Below, in pieces: positions 27,001 through 33,000 of a stretch of 38,017 nucleotides of DNA (position 1 is its first letter; the number at the start of each line of letters is the position of its first letter). The DNA comes from a virus (lineage: Duplodnaviria; Heunggongvirae; Uroviricota; Caudoviricetes), in the IMG/VR virus record IMGVR_UViG_2534682157_000008, positions 1 to 38,017 of that record; one strand, 5' to 3'. A program made the position numbers.

Positions 27001-30000
27001 TATTGGTAAGCCCGAAGAACTGGATACTTCGGCACGTAATGCCGGGGCTCTAACCCGCCGCCGCGAAATTCGTGATGCTGCAACTCTGCTACGTCTGGGG
27101 CTGGCTTACGGCCCCGGGGGGATGTCATTACGTGAAGTCACTGCATGGGCTCAGCTCCATGACGTTGCAACATTATCTGACGTGGCTCTCCTGAAGCGGC
27201 TGCGGAATGCCGCCGACTGGTTTGGCATACTTGCCGCACAAACACTTGCTGTACGCGCCGCAGTTACGGGTTGTACAAGCGGAAAGAGATTGCGTCTTGT
27301 CGATGGAACAGCAATCAGTGCGCCCGGGGGCGGCAGCGCTGAATGGCGACTACATATGGGATATGATCCTCATACCTGTCAGTTCACTGATTTTGAGCTA
27401 ACCGACAGCAGAGACGCTGAACGGCTGGACCGATTTGCGCAAACGGCAGACGAGATACGCATTGCTGACCGGGGATTCGGTTCGCGTCCCGAATGTATCC
27501 GCTCACTTGCTTTTGGAGAAGCTGATTATATCGTCCGGGTTCACTGGCGAGGATTGCGCTGGTTAACTGCAGAAGGAATGCGCTTTGACATGATGGGTTT
27601 TCTGCGCGGGCTGGATTGCGGTAAGAACGGTGAAACCACTGTAATGATAGGCAATTCAGGTAATAAAAAAGCCGGAGCTCCCTTTCCGGCACGTCTCATT
27701 GCCGTATCACTTCCTCCCGAAAAAGCATTAATCAGTAAAACCCGACTGCTCAGCGAGAATCGTCGAAAAGGACGAGTAGTTCAGGCGGAAACGCTGGAAG
27801 CAGCGGGCCATGTGCTATTGCTAACATCATTACCGGAAGATGAATATTCAGCAGAGCAAGTGGCTGATTGTTACCGTCTGCGATGGCAAATTGAACTGGC
27901 TTTTAAGCGGCTCAAAAGTTTGCTGCACCTGGATGCTTTGCGTGCAAAGGAACCTGAACTCGCGAAAGCGTGGATATTTGCTAATCTACTCGCCGCATTT
28001 TTAATTGACGACATAATCCAGCCATCGCTGGATTTCCCCCCCAGAAGTGCCGGATCCGAAAAGAAGAACTAACTCGTTGTGGAGAATAACAAAAATGGTC
28101 ATCTGGAGCTTACAGTGGCCATTCGTGGGACAGTATCCCTGACAGCCTACAAAACGCAATTGAAGAACGCGAGGCATCGTCTTAACGAGGCACCGAGGCG
28201 TCGCATTCTTCAGATGGTTCAACCCTTAAGTTAGCGCTTATGGGATTCTCCCCCGCCTGGTCTCTTACTCCTCAGGTTCGTAAGCTGTGAAGACAGCGAC
28301 CTCCGTCTGGCCGGTTCGGATTCGTACCTCGCAGAGGTCTTTCCTCGTTACCAGTGCCGTCACTATGACGGTTAAACAGATGACGATCAGGGCGATTAGC
28401 ATCGCCTTTTGCTGCTTCATAGCCTGCTTCTCCTTGCCTTTCGGCACGTAAGAGGCTAACCTACGTGTGTAGAGCATAGATATGGCCTCAGATTAATGTT
28501 AAGCGTCTTGCCGGACGCGTAATGTTAACTGGGGCTTTTCTCTATCTGCCTTTTGGTGTTCATGCCTGAGACAGATAGCCTCAAGCACCCGCAGTCATTC
28601 TACCCGTTTTAGATTTCTCAGCCAACTTTATGCTCACAACATATACAAATTTCCCGGTTAAAGCTCATCATGTTAGATAGTTTTTGCGTACGCACTATTT
28701 TTTTATGTAAACTGCGCAAAAAAGTTTAGCACCCTAAATTGTTAAGGGAAAGTTAAGGAAGTGTTAATGCTTGAGCAAACAGTAAAAAACATCAATTCAC
28801 GCTTTGGCTGGCGCAACACCCGTAAGCTTCTTGGTTCATCACTGGGTGTAACGGCCCAAGGATTACCCCTTTTTATTGAACGTGTAAATAGTGTAGTTCA
28901 GCATAATCCCGACCTAAAAGACAGAATCGACGATTTCTGGAAAGGTTTAATTTTTAGCGGGAATCGATTACTTTCTATTTATAGAATCACCGATGAAGAC
29001 GTAGCAAAATTACAAACAATTTTCACAAATCAGAAAAAGGACAATAGCCCCTTCTCAGAAAAATACCCAACTCCTTTATCCAGAGAGGAGCTGTTAGTTG
29101 CTGATACTGAGCTGCATTTTGCTGAACTACGTCAAGATATCATTCGTGATAAACAAATTGACACTGCTGTTTTTTTATCCAAAGCGTATTACACTGAAGT
29201 GATAGAGCTTGACCCAACACATCTTAGCGATGCGGGTATGGAATTACGTGCTAATGGTGGAGAAATAAAATGCAAAACACGCCAAGTCACGCAATGCTTT
29301 AATACCATCATGCTAATGCCTGCAGAAAAATATTAATTCTTACGATTGATTTATCTATCCTTCCAAGAAGTGAATCACAGCCTCAACAATACCTTGTGGC
29401 TAAATTTATAAAAAAAGAAGCTGGCGTTATTTTAAACAATCCTCTTGAATTATTTGGTTCAATACAAGATCTTTACGAAAAAGTAGATGGCAGAATTTCT
29501 CATGTATCTTTTATCACCTCAGATGGCAATACAAGTTCTTTAAAACTCAAACCAAGTCAAAAGTGTTTGCGTCAAGATGTTTACCATCATAGTGGAGAGT
29601 CCGCAAGCCCAATATTGACAAAGTTTAAGTTGGGAAAAATTTGGGATTTACCACAAAGTTCTTCACATATTTTATCAGTAGAGTTAATATTACCAGGAAA
29701 AAGGACAATGCTTGATAATCCTAGAATTAGGTTGCATGAAGCAATTGCGAAGAACTGTAACAACATTGATTCGATTATATTTATTGTTGAAAAAATATTG
29801 GATTCTGTTAAGTCCTGTGAAGAGAAAAGAAGAGCGAGATCATCAGGCCATAAATGAAAAAGAGTATATATCACGACATTATCACGCAAATAGAGCAGGA
29901 TTTTAATGATCCTGTTCGCAGTGTGTGTCGTGATCTTTTTCTTTTTCTGGTTAGTAAAGATGCTAAAAATATCAATCACTTTACATACAAAACCCTTATC

Positions 30001-33000
30001 AATGGTTTAACCTATCTAACTGATACGAAAGATGACTATATCCTGCTAATAAAAGCAACTGATTATTTATCTAGCTATAAAGCACATCTATTGGATATGC
30101 ATTTTCAATACATTGATAATTTAACGGAAGAACCAATACCAGTTGAAGATGATCTTATTTCCTATGCTTTAGACACAGGAAGTTTTTACCATCCAGAAAC
30201 TGGCGAATTGGTTGATAATTTTAGCCAGTATCTTTATCCATACTTTACTCCTTCGAGTCTTTTGGAGAGTCTGCATGAGTGATGTAAACATCTGTACTGC
30301 AGACCTTCAATCATTAATTAGAATGGATCCTGAATTTAGGGGAATGGTTCAAAGAAAATTAGCTGCAGACAAAAATATTTTTGTAAAGCAACTCTATGAA
30401 GATTTAGACGACGCTATTCAGAATTTAGAAAATGACAAACACTTCTATCAAGATGCTAAGTGGGGAGAGGACGAGCTAACAGCGTCGATCAAAAATTTCC
30501 TGAAAGGTAGGTTTTATGATGTTGAACATGATACTCAACATGGCGGTCACGTTGATTTATTAGTTAAACATCAATTCGGAAAATTCGAATGGATCGGTGA
30601 AGCAAAATTATGGAGAGGCCCCAAATCTATTCATAATGGCTGGATTCAGCTAACCGAACGTTACGGCACGGGTACGTCACGTGACGATCATGGAGGAATT
30701 CTAATTTATATAAAGTCTGACAAATCAGCAGTAAAATTCAATGAATGGAAAGAATTTTTCTCTACGACCGTTTCGGACGCAGAAATTGAAGCGGAAGGCT
30801 CTCCCCTCCGCTTTAAGAGTATCACAAAGCATCCAGCAACAGCGCTTCCATATCATGTAAGACACATGGGAGTATCCTTATACCATTACACTGGTAAAAA
30901 ACCGCTGACTCTTAACTGGTAATTGCTATATATCCAGTCAAAAAACCTAAGGCTTTTTGCAATCTTTTACGAATTGTTCCATCTGAACATCCTTGTTGCT
31001 TTGCAATAGCACGAAGAGATAAACCAATCACGAAATGAGCAACAATTAACTCATATTCTTGTTGCTTATATCTTTCTAACATAAGGATACTAATGTCAAT
31101 AATTCGCCCTTCATCATTGCTGCACTGACGACGTGATTTTTTACCATGAGGAACAACATTTTTATATTTATCAGCTATTTCCTGCCAATCAATAGAACTA
31201 TTACCAGCCACAACCCAAGCCCCCCAATCGTCTAAAATATCACATATATCAACATTACTATCCATCTGTTTTTATTTTCTATTTTGAAATAACCAAGCAG
31301 CATTCTAGCCATTGTTGTTATTTCTATACTTGTAACTGACTCATAAGCATGAGGAGAAACAATTCTCTCATCACTTAATGCCCAATCACTAAGGTTTGCT
31401 ATTTCCAACAATCGTTCTTTAGTTATTCCCATTATTATCTCCACCGCCCTTTCGGGCGGCCTCCTGATGATTTGAGGGTGCAGGAATCCCTCCGGTTAAG
31501 GATTTAATAAAAATCGTTTCTGATTTAAATCTTCAGTATTTAGTTGTTAGTCGGTTTATAGCCTTTATGCTTCGGCCTTATTTCTCAGCCATACACAAAC
31601 CGGGCCATCTTCGGTGTCATGTATTGAACCAATAAACCATCCATTGCCCTCTGGTCGTTCCGGTTCCCATGCAGAAATATCAGCATCACACGCATCAAGG
31701 TCAGCACATCCTTCATCTCTGAAGCAGAGGACGTATTGAAGATTATTTTCCTCCATCCAGGCGTTAAACTCTTCCGTTGAAATATATTCCCGACCGTCAC
31801 AGAATTTTTCATATTCAGGATGCGTCCAGCAGCCATATTCATCACGTACTACTGGTATTTCTTTGATTTCATTCATTTCTGTTCTCCCACGTTTTCAGAC
31901 TTTCACCACAGAACGGACAAAATGAAACCCGAACTGGTAATTTAGAAAATTCACCGGAACGCAACATCACAAAATCAGGACCGCGAGTTAAACTCTCATT
32001 CCAGATTTTGTATATCAGCAGACCTTTTCGCATCGTGTATTCAGCATCATGCTCAAGGGACTTTGCCAGTGCTGCACATGGTTCTATCTTGTTGCCATTA
32101 ACCTGGCATTTTGATTCACTCACCGCACCACCTCCTCAAAATTCCCCTGATAAAACGCCAGTACGCGCTGCATAACTTCGCTCTTCCGGCACTCGAGACA
32201 GATTATGTTCAGACGCCTGTCGTAGCGGCGTATTTCGCCATCTGGTAATGACCAGATAAGGTCCGGATCAACCGCAGATGGTTTCTTCGGCTTTGCCCTT
32301 GAGAGCTTTTTACGGGCATTTTGCCAGTCCTTACGCGCCTGTTCAGACGGGAATAACCCGTAACCAGAGTTGTATACATCGCCACTGGCAACCAGCTCTC
32401 TGGCCAGAACGCTCATCAGATATCTTGTTGCCCCAGTTTTAGTTTCCAGTTGTCGTAACGTCTCGCGCCCACTCTGGCGTACGAGTTCAACAACCTGCCC
32501 TTTAATTTTTTCCCGCTCTTCTTGTGTAAAAACTTTTGCCACAAGCCCTCCTGAAAATTACCTCATGACCAGAAATTAACACTTACCCCCTGAAGCCCGG
32601 CGGAATTTCAGTGTCCGGTTCAGAAATGTGATTCACGCAACGCTGCGCAGGCGAACGCCCCAGGCGGATAACCAGTTCATCCCATTTTTCCCGGAGTTTT
32701 GCCGGACTCATGATGTTTTTTACCCAGAACGAATCCCGCTGGAGACGCCCAAACATTTCACAAATTTGTCTGTGAGTTCTGCCATCCAGCATCCGCATTG
32801 TGCGAACGTCATTGGCCCATGCTGTCCAGTTGGGTTCTTTCGGTCTAGTGATCTCGCCATCATAGCTGGCCGCCTGCTCGTAAAGACTCACGATTCGTCC
32901 CCAGATCCACTGTGCGCACACCAAATCTTCCTGACTTCCCCACTGGCGTTTTTTCGCACTGAACACAACCGCGTCAGGGTGTCGGGTTAAAAAATCCTGT

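What the first reader, a model, noticed from the sequence alone, without database searches (positions are those of the whole stretch)
28684..30922. AT-rich cassette of unknown genes ending in a PD-(D/E)xK-like nuclease, wedged between hokD and Q
Genes A to D (28767-30922) share no family I recognise, are visibly AT-rich (high-30s % GC by eye against roughly 50-55% in flanking phage genes), and B-C-D are coupled by ATGA overlaps. Gene D has a GHVDLLV...WIGEAK arrangement typical of restriction-endonuclease-fold nucleases. The cassette sits where Qin-type prophages carry relBE next to hokD, but on the opposite strand and convergent with Q. That placement in a prophage cargo slot, beside a toxin and an IS, is what I would expect of an uncharacterised anti-phage defence or abortive-infection module.
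Basis: partly seen in the sequence, partly recalled or inferred. Interest (0 to 1): 0.85.

Follow-up and report, generated by a model that had tools for sequence, protein, structure and literature searches.

The report
Prophage copy of DS-21 anti-phage system
The AT-rich cassette is a three-gene (not four-gene) operon related to DS-21, a phage-defence system shown to work in E. coli in 2026, so it is a real defence module but not a new kind, and how it works is still unknown.

Summary
Window 28767-30922 is an AT-rich (36.6% GC against about 51% in the flanks) co-directional cassette between hok/sok and a Q antiterminator. Its last gene is a restriction-endonuclease-fold nuclease.

Two corrections:
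- "Genes A and B" are one 363-aa gene. It is split by a 1-base deletion in an A-run at 29326.
- All 9 indels against the nearest complete genome are ±1 changes in homopolymer runs, and they break six genes. The split is therefore probably an assembly error.

The real unit has three genes: about 363 aa, 142 aa (acidic) and 213-215 aa (nuclease). The three proteins are 51%, 54% and 60% identical, over full length and in the same order, to DS-21. DS-21 (working name TOXO) is a three-gene E. coli system that DefensePredictor (Science 2026, PMC13092281) cloned and validated against phages (Bas1 about 3x10^4-fold, Bas11 100-fold).

What I add:
- Gene 1 has an RdgC-like fold, the DNA-binding fold to which lambda RexA has also been related.
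- Its family has about 500 clusters and no Pfam model.
- The three genes stay together in every relative with enough flanking sequence.
- They travel on prophages, integrase islands and a Tn7-like transposon.

Verdict: a new, diverged member of a known, phenotypically validated system with no known mechanism.

The parts
28591..28766 (+). Upstream intergenic region between the hok/sok locus and gene 1. It presumably holds the cassette's own promoter. It carries a Shine-Dalgarno-like AAGGA at 28755-28759, 7 nt before the ATG at 28767.
   Evidence: The sequence was read directly. The Rfam sok match ends at 28590. The consensus promoter scan was not above chance (15 sites found against 10.4 expected), so no promoter is assigned.
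28767..29857 (+). Gene 1, the DS-21A-like gene (363 aa when intact, basic, pI 8.8, RdgC-like fold). In this window it is split into 'A' (28767-29336) and 'B' (ORF 29396-29857, open frame from 29303) by a 1-base deletion in an A-run at 29326.
   Evidence: - Both halves hit phrog_12777 at positions 1-186 and 215-352.
- The gene is an intact 363-aa protein (WP_000893387.1) in NZ_CP027312, E2348/69 and others.
- Adding one A restores the identical protein.
- It is 51% identical to DS-21A, E 1e-139.
- Foldseek against BFVD finds phage RdgC/'exonuclease' proteins at probability 1.0.
29854..30282 (+). Gene 2, the DS-21B-like gene (142 aa, acidic, pI 4.6, net charge about -13). It is translationally coupled to gene 1 (ATGA overlap) and to gene 3 (8-nt overlap).
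   Evidence: - It is 54% identical to DS-21B, E 2e-48.
- It matches phrog_11490 and has no Pfam or PDB match.
- The LLDMHFQ...FYHPxTGE...FPYFxP core is conserved in 12 diverse homologues.
- A C-like domain is fused to an unrelated 300-aa N-terminal region in variant locus L055 (hhalign probability 95.7%).
30275..30922 (+). Gene 3, the DS-21C-like gene. It has an N-terminal helical region followed by a PD-(D/E)xK nuclease (215 aa as read, 213 aa in relatives). The motif is E65 ... GH-V-D94 ... W-I-G-E109-A-K111 ... Q125xxxxY130. The last few residues are changed by a 1-base deletion at 30896.
   Evidence: - It is 60% identical to DS-21C, E 2e-92.
- The AF2 model has pLDDT 92.5.
- The invariant residues are listed.
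- 35 of 43 family members hit PADLOC candidate PDC-S54 locally (best 7.5e-11).
- The long start at 30275 is supported by the conserved N-termini of homologues. PGAP calls a shorter start, equivalent to about 30323.
30912..31444 (-). Context: a PF06530-type antiterminator Q gene, convergent with gene 3 and overlapping its 3' end. It is AT-rich (34% GC). In this window it is split (30912-31265 and 31232-31444) by a 1-base deletion in a T-run at 31269.
   Evidence: Pfam Phage_antitermQ 1.2e-31. The gene is an intact 173-aa protein in NZ_CP027312. The indel is shown. The same convergent Q arrangement occurs at the DS-21 locus itself.
28265..28590 (-). Context: the hokD toxin gene and its sok/mok regulatory region, forming the left border of the slot.
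   Evidence: Pfam HOK_GEF 2.9e-23. Rfam sok RF01794 at 28415-28590, 117 bits. Annotated hokD in relatives.
26954..28072 (+). Context: IS4-family IS421 transposase (372 aa, intact here).
   Evidence: ORF list. Annotated 'IS4-like element IS421 family transposase' at the same place in NZ_CP027312 (frameshifted there) and NZ_CP041429 (intact).

Best explanation
The cassette is a prophage-borne member of the DS-21 family, a three-protein anti-phage defence system.

Shown here:
- The three genes are full-length homologues, in the same order, of a system with a published anti-phage phenotype.
- The three genes are inherited together throughout a large family.
- Gene 3 has the complete catalytic set of a restriction-endonuclease-fold nuclease.
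- Gene 1 has the RdgC-type DNA-binding fold.

Inferred working model, with about 0.35 confidence in its details:
1. The basic gene-1 protein binds DNA as an RdgC-like clamp or horseshoe. It acts as the sensor of an infection-specific DNA state, such as phage replication or recombination intermediates or incoming linear DNA. This resembles what is proposed for RexA.
2. The small acidic gene-2 protein couples the sensor to the nuclease and may hold the nuclease inactive.
3. On activation, the gene-3 nuclease cuts DNA. This stops phage replication either directly or by killing the cell.

Expression is expected from the cassette's own promoter in the lysogen, independently of the phage late operon, which runs on the opposite strand.

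As written in this window, gene 1 is frameshifted. This is most likely an assembly error (about 0.8). If it is real, this copy is probably inactive.
For: Homology to a validated system:
- AB, C and D against DS-21A, B and C give 51%, 54% and 60% identity, with E 1e-139, 2e-48 and 2e-92.
- P0014, found independently as a homologue of D, is 100% identical to DS-21C.
- DS-21 (TOXO) is listed as validated and replicated. Its -log10 EOP values are 4.48 on Bas1 and 2.0 on Bas11, with smaller plaques on Bas3, Bas9, Bas67 and T3 (PMC13092281 Tables S6, S7, S8, S11).

Nuclease.

Gene linkage:
- In 32 of 32 distant loci with enough downstream sequence, the gene-1 relative is followed by a D-like gene. 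In 30 of them a C-like gene is also recognisable.
- The same holds in 47 closer loci.

Mobile, sporadic distribution:
- 14 of 5426 complete E. coli genomes carry this type and 12 of 5426 carry the DS-21 type.
- Carriers include lambdoid prophages, a V. parahaemolyticus integrase island, a Shewanella island with a resolvase and a prophage next to hipA.
- A Tn7-like transposon carries it next to a 33%-identical homologue of validated DS-23.

Adaptor role of gene 2: a C-like domain is fused to a different N-terminal region, followed by a D homologue, in L055. Gene 2 also overlaps both neighbours.

Charge pattern: AB pI 8.8, C pI 4.6.
Against: - No experiment exists on this particular variant. At 51-60% identity it may have a different phage range or none.
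- DS-21 has no published mechanism, mutants or toxicity data (one search found no mention in the main text).
- The most conserved stretch of gene 1 (residues about 237-293) is the least confident part of the model.
- Gene 1 is frameshifted in the window. It is independently disrupted in four other copies.
- The neighbourhood survey showed mobile-element genes rather than dense known-defence islands.
Confidence: 0.8

Rival explanations
1. It is primarily a toxin-antitoxin or addiction module. The gene-3 nuclease is the toxin, the acidic gene-2 protein is its antitoxin, and gene 1 is an accessory regulator. Its main role would be to stabilise the mobile element, with phage defence as a by-product.
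For: - A small acidic gene lies immediately upstream of, and overlaps, a nuclease gene.
- The cassette sits beside hok/sok, in the slot where Qin carries relBE.
- Gene 1 is disrupted repeatedly while genes 2 and 3 stay intact. This would be tolerated if gene 1 is not needed to neutralise the toxin.
Against: - Gene 1 is linked to genes 2 and 3 across the whole family. This argues for a three-part machine, not a two-part TA with an optional extra.
- In L055 the C-like domain is fused to a large N-terminal region, which is unlike a labile antitoxin.
- There are no toxicity data.
- The homologue protects on a plasmid in a prophage-free host (and Table S7).
Confidence: 0.12
2. It is a restriction-like system that attacks foreign DNA directly. 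The RdgC-like protein would recognise a DNA feature (ends, modification state or topology) and recruit the BamHI-like nuclease, with no cell suicide.
For: - The closest structural matches of gene 3 are type II restriction enzymes and McrC.
- Gene 1 has a DNA-clamp fold.
- The strong effect of DS-21 on Bas1 is on efficiency of plating, not only plaque size.
Against: - No methyltransferase or NTPase is linked to the cassette in any locus examined.
- How host DNA would be spared is unexplained.
- Plating data alone cannot separate direct defence from abortive infection.
Confidence: 0.3
3. The copy in this window is a decaying pseudogene remnant with no present function, whatever its ancestors did.
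For: - Gene 1 is frameshifted, the tail of gene 3 is altered and the adjacent Q is split.
- Gene 1 is also disrupted in strains N51 and JB2 (1-base deletions), in ETEC1746 (IS1-associated 5' truncation) and in IMG/VR locus L037.
Against: - All 9 indels against NZ_CP027312 over 16.3 kb are ±1 changes in homopolymer runs. They break DUF968, gene 1, gene 3, Q, cro and a DUF1482 gene, with only 0.3% substitutions. This is the pattern of sequencing error.
- Restoring one base gives a protein identical to the intact allele.
Confidence: 0.2
4. It serves the phage itself, for example as a recombination or replication accessory module (an RdgC-like protein plus a nuclease), rather than defending the host.
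For: - RdgC-like proteins are encoded by lytic phages and annotated as exonuclease or recombination-associated.
- In this window the cassette lies within the early-gene region of a lambdoid prophage, between the replication genes and a second nin/Q block.
Against: - It is transcribed against the phage operons.
- It occurs on a Tn7-like transposon, on integrase islands and at chromosomal sites with no phage genes.
- It is absent from isolated phage genomes in INPHARED apart from a mislabelled Acinetobacter contig.
- The homologue protects a prophage-free host.
Confidence: 0.04

Closest known systems
DS-21 (working name TOXO; WP_001532221.1, WP_021552536.1, WP_001557682.1), DefensePredictor, Science 2026, PMC13092281
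   Same: - Same three genes in the same order and of the same sizes (365, 140, 211 aa against 363, 142, 213-215 aa).
- Full-length homology of each protein (51%, 54%, 60%).
- Same catalytic residues.
- Same kind of site: convergent with a PF06530 Q gene in a lambdoid prophage.
   Different: - Diverged enough that megablast does not connect the two types.
- A different prophage backbone and slot (between Q and hokD here, between Q and the holin there).
- This variant is untested.
- This copy has a frameshifted gene 1.
Lambda RexA/RexB exclusion system
   Same: - A prophage-encoded, non-specific DNA-binding protein related to the RdgC fold is proposed as the infection sensor (PMC11077077).
- It is expressed from the lysogen.
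   Different: - No sequence similarity to RexA.
- There is no RexB-like membrane protein. The effector here is a soluble nuclease, and there is a third, acidic protein.
RdgC (recombination-associated DNA-binding ring, PDB 2owl)
   Different: - About 9% identity and no Pfam RdgC hit.
- Gene 1 has an extra N-terminal helical bundle and a long C-terminal helix.
- RdgC is a chromosomal housekeeping gene with no nuclease partner.
Nuclease effectors of defence systems: Lamassu LmuA PD-(D/E)xK effector, PADLOC candidate PDC-S54, Hachiman HamA, McrC
   Same: - The same nuclease superfamily.
- A local profile match to PDC-S54 (35 of 43 members).
- The authors' HHblits search links DS-21C to the LmuA PDDEXK effector (probability 94.7, coverage 0.55).
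   Different: - None of their partners is present: no LmuB SMC, HamB helicase or McrB GTPase.
- Only the catalytic core matches. PDC-S54 is a 410-position single-gene model matched at positions 295-353 only.
BamHI/OkrAI/BstYI/BglII type II restriction endonucleases
   Different: Identity is 8-13%. There is no cognate methyltransferase. Gene 3 has an added N-terminal helical region and two obligatory partner proteins.

Membership tests
DS-21 (DefensePredictor system 21) | Three co-directional, tightly packed genes in the order about 365 aa, about 140 aa, about 211 aa | tested here: met
   28767-29857 (363 aa once the frameshift is repaired), 29854-30282 (142 aa) and 30275-30922 (215 aa). The overlaps are 4 nt and 8 nt.
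DS-21 (DefensePredictor system 21) | Each protein is homologous over its full length to DS-21A, B and C | tested here: met
   BLASTP gives 51% (E 1e-139), 54% (E 2e-48) and 60% (E 2e-92).
DS-21 (DefensePredictor system 21) | The third protein is a PD-(D/E)xK nuclease with intact catalytic residues | tested here: met
DS-21 (DefensePredictor system 21) | All three reading frames intact | tested here: inconclusive
   Gene 1 is split at 29326 and the tail of gene 3 is changed at 30896. All 9 indels against the nearest genome are homopolymer ±1 changes and break six genes. An assembly error is therefore likely, but this is not proven.
DS-21 (DefensePredictor system 21) | Protection against phages when expressed from its own promoter | not testable with these tools
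   Shown only for the ECOR homologue (PMC13092281 Table S7).
RexAB-type exclusion | RexA-family sensor protein | tested here: not met
   hhalign of the gene-1 family against lambda RexA gives probability 0.1-0.2%. The only link is indirect: gene 1 resembles RdgC, and RexA has itself been related to RdgC.
RexAB-type exclusion | RexB-like membrane effector encoded next to the sensor | tested here: not met
   The partners are a soluble acidic 142-aa protein and a nuclease. RexB was not among the Pfam, PHROGs or PADLOC hits.
Type II restriction-modification | Cognate DNA methyltransferase linked to the endonuclease | tested here: not met
   No methyltransferase adjoins the cassette in the window or in the other loci. 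The prophage's methyltransferase lies more than 5 kb away in the late region.
Lamassu | LmuB SMC-like ATPase partner of the LmuA effector | tested here: not met
   PADLOC found no Lamassu component. Only a weak PDC-S54 hit on gene 3 was returned.
PADLOC candidate PDC-S54 | Full-length match to the single-gene 410-position model | tested here: not met
   Only model positions 295-353 are matched. E is 1.6e-3 for the window protein and 7.5e-11 at best in the family.
Type II toxin-antitoxin | A toxin that is neutralised by the adjacent small protein | not testable with these tools
   The C-D arrangement is compatible. The fused C-like domain in L055 argues against a simple antitoxin.

The most novel reading that the evidence does not exclude
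The DS-21 family may be a distinct mechanistic class. An RdgC-fold DNA clamp would serve as the infection sensor, and a dedicated acidic adaptor would wire it to a BamHI-like nuclease. This would be a 'Rex-like sensor with a nuclease effector'.

The clamp protein family is large (about 500 clusters at 50% identity), has no Pfam model and appears never to occur without the other two genes. The repeated loss of gene 1 alone would then reflect the cost of a trigger-happy sensor.
Probability: 0.35. Interest if true: 0.65.

Novelty: new member of a known kind. Interest (0 to 1): 0.35.

Why it matters
It assigns a function to three 'hypothetical proteins' carried by lambdoid prophages of pathogenic E. 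coli, including EPEC E2348/69, O145 and other STEC.

It also shows that DS-21, so far a single line in a screening table, stands for a widespread, strictly three-gene family. That family is carried on prophages, genomic islands and a Tn7-like transposon.

The RdgC-like fold of the first protein gives the first concrete, testable idea of how the system might sense infection. It also points to a possible parallel with the long-unsolved Rex system of phage lambda.

For annotation, it shows how single-base homopolymer errors can turn a three-gene system into an apparent four-gene one.

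Tried and rejected
- Pfam, NCBIfam and PADLOC scans of the window ORFs gave nothing except a weak PDC-S54 hit. Pfam scans of 31 and 123 gene-1 relatives and 12 gene-2 relatives found no family.
- Sequence searches of the PDB with profiles of all three families gave only chance-level hits, such as Rab21 at E 0.007.
- hhalign of the gene-1 family against lambda RexA showed no similarity.
- The AFDB50 fold library was not available.
- The genome-contig scan with the close gene-1 alignment returned only one locus.
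- The 123-sequence alignment was too diverse for locus searches. A 20-sequence sub-alignment worked.
- tblastn against isolated phages found only a mislabelled Acinetobacter chromosomal contig.
- The consensus promoter and terminator scan was not above chance, so no promoter is claimed.
- Literature searches for PDC-S54, the WP accessions, 'RdgC-like' with 'defense system', and lambdoid 'defense hotspot' found nothing. The link to DS-21 came only from searching peptide motifs in the DefensePredictor supplementary tables.
- The domain-centric discovery paper (PMC13069673) has no supplementary files held, so it could not be checked. Brenes & Laub 2025 (Cell Host Microbe) is not in the library.
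- The neighbour survey (149 flanking ORFs) showed mobile-element genes but no clear enrichment of known defence genes.

Full report
**What is in the sequence**

Window 28500-32000 is markedly AT-rich. GC is 36.6% over 28767-30922, against 50.6% and 50.9% in the immediate flanks and 55.4% over the first 20 kb.

Four + strand ORFs fill the finding:
- A: 28761/28767-29336
- B: 29396-29857
- C: 29854-30282
- D: 30275-30922

To the left lie hokD with its sok region (28265-28590; Pfam HOK_GEF 2.9e-23, Rfam sok 117 bits) and an IS421 transposase (26954-28072). To the right, on the opposite strand and overlapping the end of D, lies a PF06530-type antiterminator Q (30912-31444).

In K-12 Qin the position beside hokD is occupied by relBE.

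**A and B are one gene**

Both fragments match a single PHROG profile of 352 positions. A covers 1-186 and B covers 215-352.

In the nearest complete genome (NZ_CP027312, 99.9% identical), and in E2348/69, STEC367 and others, there is one 363-aa gene, WP_000893387.1 or WP_000893384.1. The window differs by one missing A in an A6 run at 29326. Inserting it restores a protein identical to WP_000893387.1.

Two further single-base homopolymer deletions change the last few residues of D (30896) and split Q (31269).

Over the 16.3 kb that align to that genome, all 9 indels are ±1 changes in homopolymer runs. They fall in DUF968, gene 1, gene 3, Q, cro and a DUF1482 gene. One more lies in the IS421 transposase, which is frameshifted in the reference and intact here. 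Substitutions are only about 0.3%. This is the signature of sequencing or assembly error, so I treat the cassette as three genes: 363, 142 and 213-215 aa.

The C-D junction is an 8-nt overlap (ATGAGTGA), not ATGA.

**What the proteins are**

None of the three has a Pfam or NCBIfam family or a sequence relative in the PDB.

Gene 3:
- It models with high confidence (pLDDT 92.5) as helices followed by a restriction-endonuclease core.
- E65, D94, E109, K111, Q125 and Y130 are invariant in 43 homologues.
- 35 of these 43 hit the PADLOC candidate PDC-S54, but only over its nuclease core.

Gene 1:
- It is basic (pI 8.8) and models at pLDDT 83.
- Foldseek against viral models finds phage RdgC/'exonuclease' proteins at probability 1.0 but low TM.

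Gene 2:
- It is acidic (pI 4.6, about -13 net charge) with a conserved LLDMHFQ...FYHPxTGE...FPYFxP core.
- It has no detectable relatives outside these cassettes.

**Distribution**

- An exhaustive HMMER search with the gene-1 profile found 500 clusters (50% identity level) at E ≤ 1e-3 and 290 at E ≤ 1e-10. Most full-length hits are 335-410 aa.
- In all 47 close loci with enough sequence, gene 1 is followed by a D homologue at the spacing expected for C.
- In a second set of 38 distant loci (gene 1 about 24-37% identical to the query), 32 of the 32 with enough downstream sequence carry a D-like gene. In 30 of these a C-like gene is recognisable by HMM.
- The cassette is rare in E. coli: 14 of 5426 complete genomes for this type.

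Carriers include:
- lambdoid prophages, always convergent with a PF06530 Q;
- a small integrase island beside rpoD in V. parahaemolyticus;
- a Shewanella island with a resolvase;
- an Acinetobacter chromosomal islet;
- a prophage beside hipA;
- the cargo of a Tn7-like transposon, where the next gene is a 33%-identical homologue of the validated defence gene DS-23.

A pooled scan of 149 flanking ORFs mostly found integrases, XRE regulators, Rha, Q, DUF968, phage methyltransferases and resolvases.

One variant (L055) has no gene 1. Its D homologue is instead preceded by a 423-aa protein whose last 120 residues are C-like (hhalign probability 95.7%) and whose first 300 are unrelated. That is the best clue that gene 2 is a coupling module between a sensor and the nuclease.

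**The link to a known system**

Searching peptide motifs in the supplementary tables of the DefensePredictor paper (PMC13092281, Science, April 2026) found the unit 'TOXO'. It comprises WP_001532221.1 (365 aa), WP_021552536.1 (140 aa) and WP_001557682.1 (211 aa) from an E. coli collection strain (assembly GCF_003334085.1). It is listed as a predicted novel defence system, validated and replicated, and named DS-21.

It was cloned with its native promoter on a low-copy plasmid in MG1655. Table S7 gives these -log10 EOP values:

| Phage | -log10 EOP | Plaques |
|---|---|---|
| Bas1 | 4.48 | |
| Bas11 | 2.0 | |
| Bas67 | 0.82 | smaller |
| Bas3 | 0.52 | smaller |
| T3 | 0.30 | smaller |
| Bas9 | 0.18 | smaller |

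BASEL holds 13 Drexlerviridae phages. Bas01 and Bas02 are named among them, and Bas14 begins the next group (PMC8594841). I therefore take Bas1, Bas3, Bas9 and Bas11 to be Drexlerviridae (T1-like).

The window proteins are 51%, 54% and 60% identical to DS-21A, B and C over full length. The '60% homologue' I had found independently (P0014) is DS-21C itself. DS-21 sits between Q and the holin of another lambdoid prophage, again convergent with Q, and occurs in 12 of 5426 complete genomes.

The paper does not discuss DS-21 in its main text. Its only annotation is a remote HHblits link of DS-21C to the Lamassu LmuA PD-(D/E)xK effector. DS-21A and DS-21B carry no annotation.

**How it most likely works**

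Shown:
- homology to a system with an anti-phage phenotype;
- a complete nuclease active site;
- an RdgC-type fold in gene 1;
- strict linkage of the three genes;
- carriage on mobile elements.

Inferred:
- Gene 1 binds DNA and senses an infection-specific DNA state.
- Gene 2 couples it to the nuclease and perhaps restrains the nuclease.
- The nuclease cuts DNA.
- Whether this kills the cell or only the phage is open.

I put about 0.8 on 'a DS-21-family defence system' and about 0.35 on the sensor-adaptor-nuclease wiring.

The rivals are a toxin-antitoxin module, a restriction-like direct mechanism, a dead copy and a phage-serving recombination module. They are weighed in the rival list.

**An unexplained pattern**

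Among near-identical copies, gene 1 is disrupted independently five times:
- a 1-base deletion in the start codon (N51);
- a 1-base deletion at about 28939 (JB2);
- an IS1-associated 5' truncation (ETEC1746);
- an A-run deletion at about 29411 (IMG/VR locus L037);
- the window's own deletion at 29326.

Genes 2 and 3 stay intact apart from the window's gene-3 tail. With five or six events this is only suggestive, and some may be assembly errors. If real, it fits gene 1 being a costly activator rather than a protective antitoxin.

**Verdict**

The cassette is not a new kind of system. It is a diverged, untested member of DS-21, a family published in 2026 with a phenotype but no mechanism.

The useful additions here are:
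- the corrected gene structure;
- the fold assignment of the first protein;
- the size of the family and its strict three-gene architecture;
- the fused variant.

Noticed in passing
window 23494, 25758, 26824, 28036, 29326, 30896, 31269, 34168, 37034: All nine indels relative to the closest complete genome (NZ_CP027312) are ±1 changes in homopolymer runs. They break DUF968, gene 1, gene 3 (tail), Q, cro and a DUF1482 gene. The window sequence probably carries systematic homopolymer errors, so any frameshift in it should be distrusted.
   Followed up: yes
L098 (N51), L099 (JB2), L100 (ETEC1746), L037, window 29326: Gene 1 of the cassette is disrupted independently in five near-identical copies: two non-run 1-base deletions, two A-run deletions and one IS1-associated truncation. 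Genes 2 and 3 remain intact. PGAP then annotates a 206-aa C-terminal fragment (WP_231216512.1). This could mean selection against the putative sensor, or it could be assembly noise.
   Followed up: partly
L055:5743-7630: A two-gene variant. A 423-aa protein has a C-terminal 120 residues resembling gene 2 (hhalign 95.7%) and an N-terminal 300 residues unrelated to gene 1. It is followed by a D homologue. This suggests that the sensor part can be swapped while the adaptor and nuclease stay together.
   Followed up: partly
L013:1-11044 (JGI metagenome contig): The cassette is cargo of a Tn7-like element (TniQ, AAA_22 ATPase, a large 899-aa protein). It is preceded by an XRE-type regulator and followed by a 715-aa SEC-C protein. 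That protein is 33% identical (E 3e-75) to the validated single-gene defence system DS-23.
   Followed up: partly
window 30912-31444 and about 24365-25054 (by alignment to NZ_CP027312): The prophage carries two antiterminator Q genes of different families. A PF06530-type Q abuts the cassette. A lambda-type Q follows a second DUF968-RusA block, just before the late region. This points to a mosaic join. The PF06530 Q next to the cassette is 38% identical to the one next to DS-21. It is also frameshifted in strain RM9154-C1.
   Followed up: partly
window 26954-28072: The IS421 (IS4-family) transposase is intact in this window but annotated as frameshifted in the closest genome. The difference is one C in a C-run at 28036.
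   Followed up: no
window 20108-20315, 21733-21981, 36480-36531: Rfam finds the sRNA STnc100 (177 bits), three tRNA genes and DicF RNA (76 bits) in the prophage. From the annotation of the aligned genome, a MazF-family toxin gene and an orphan DNA methyltransferase lie between the second Q and the tRNAs.
   Followed up: no
L051 (CAKLQF020000019.1, labelled 'Acinetobacter phage MD-2021a'): This INPHARED 'phage' record carries the cassette among enterobactin synthetase, fabG, glycerate kinase and similar genes. It looks like a bacterial chromosomal contig mislabelled as a phage.
   Followed up: no
gene-1 family alignment A4, residues about 237-293 of the 363-aa protein: The most conserved stretch of the gene-1 family is LY..EG.V.EL.F.T..GS.KHEKMR...DLR.E.YH..G..AV...PY...W, with near-invariant Y237, G242, T251, R269, H274, G277 and W293. 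It is also the least confidently modelled part (pLDDT 49-58). It could be an interaction or catalytic site rather than plain DNA-binding surface.
   Followed up: no
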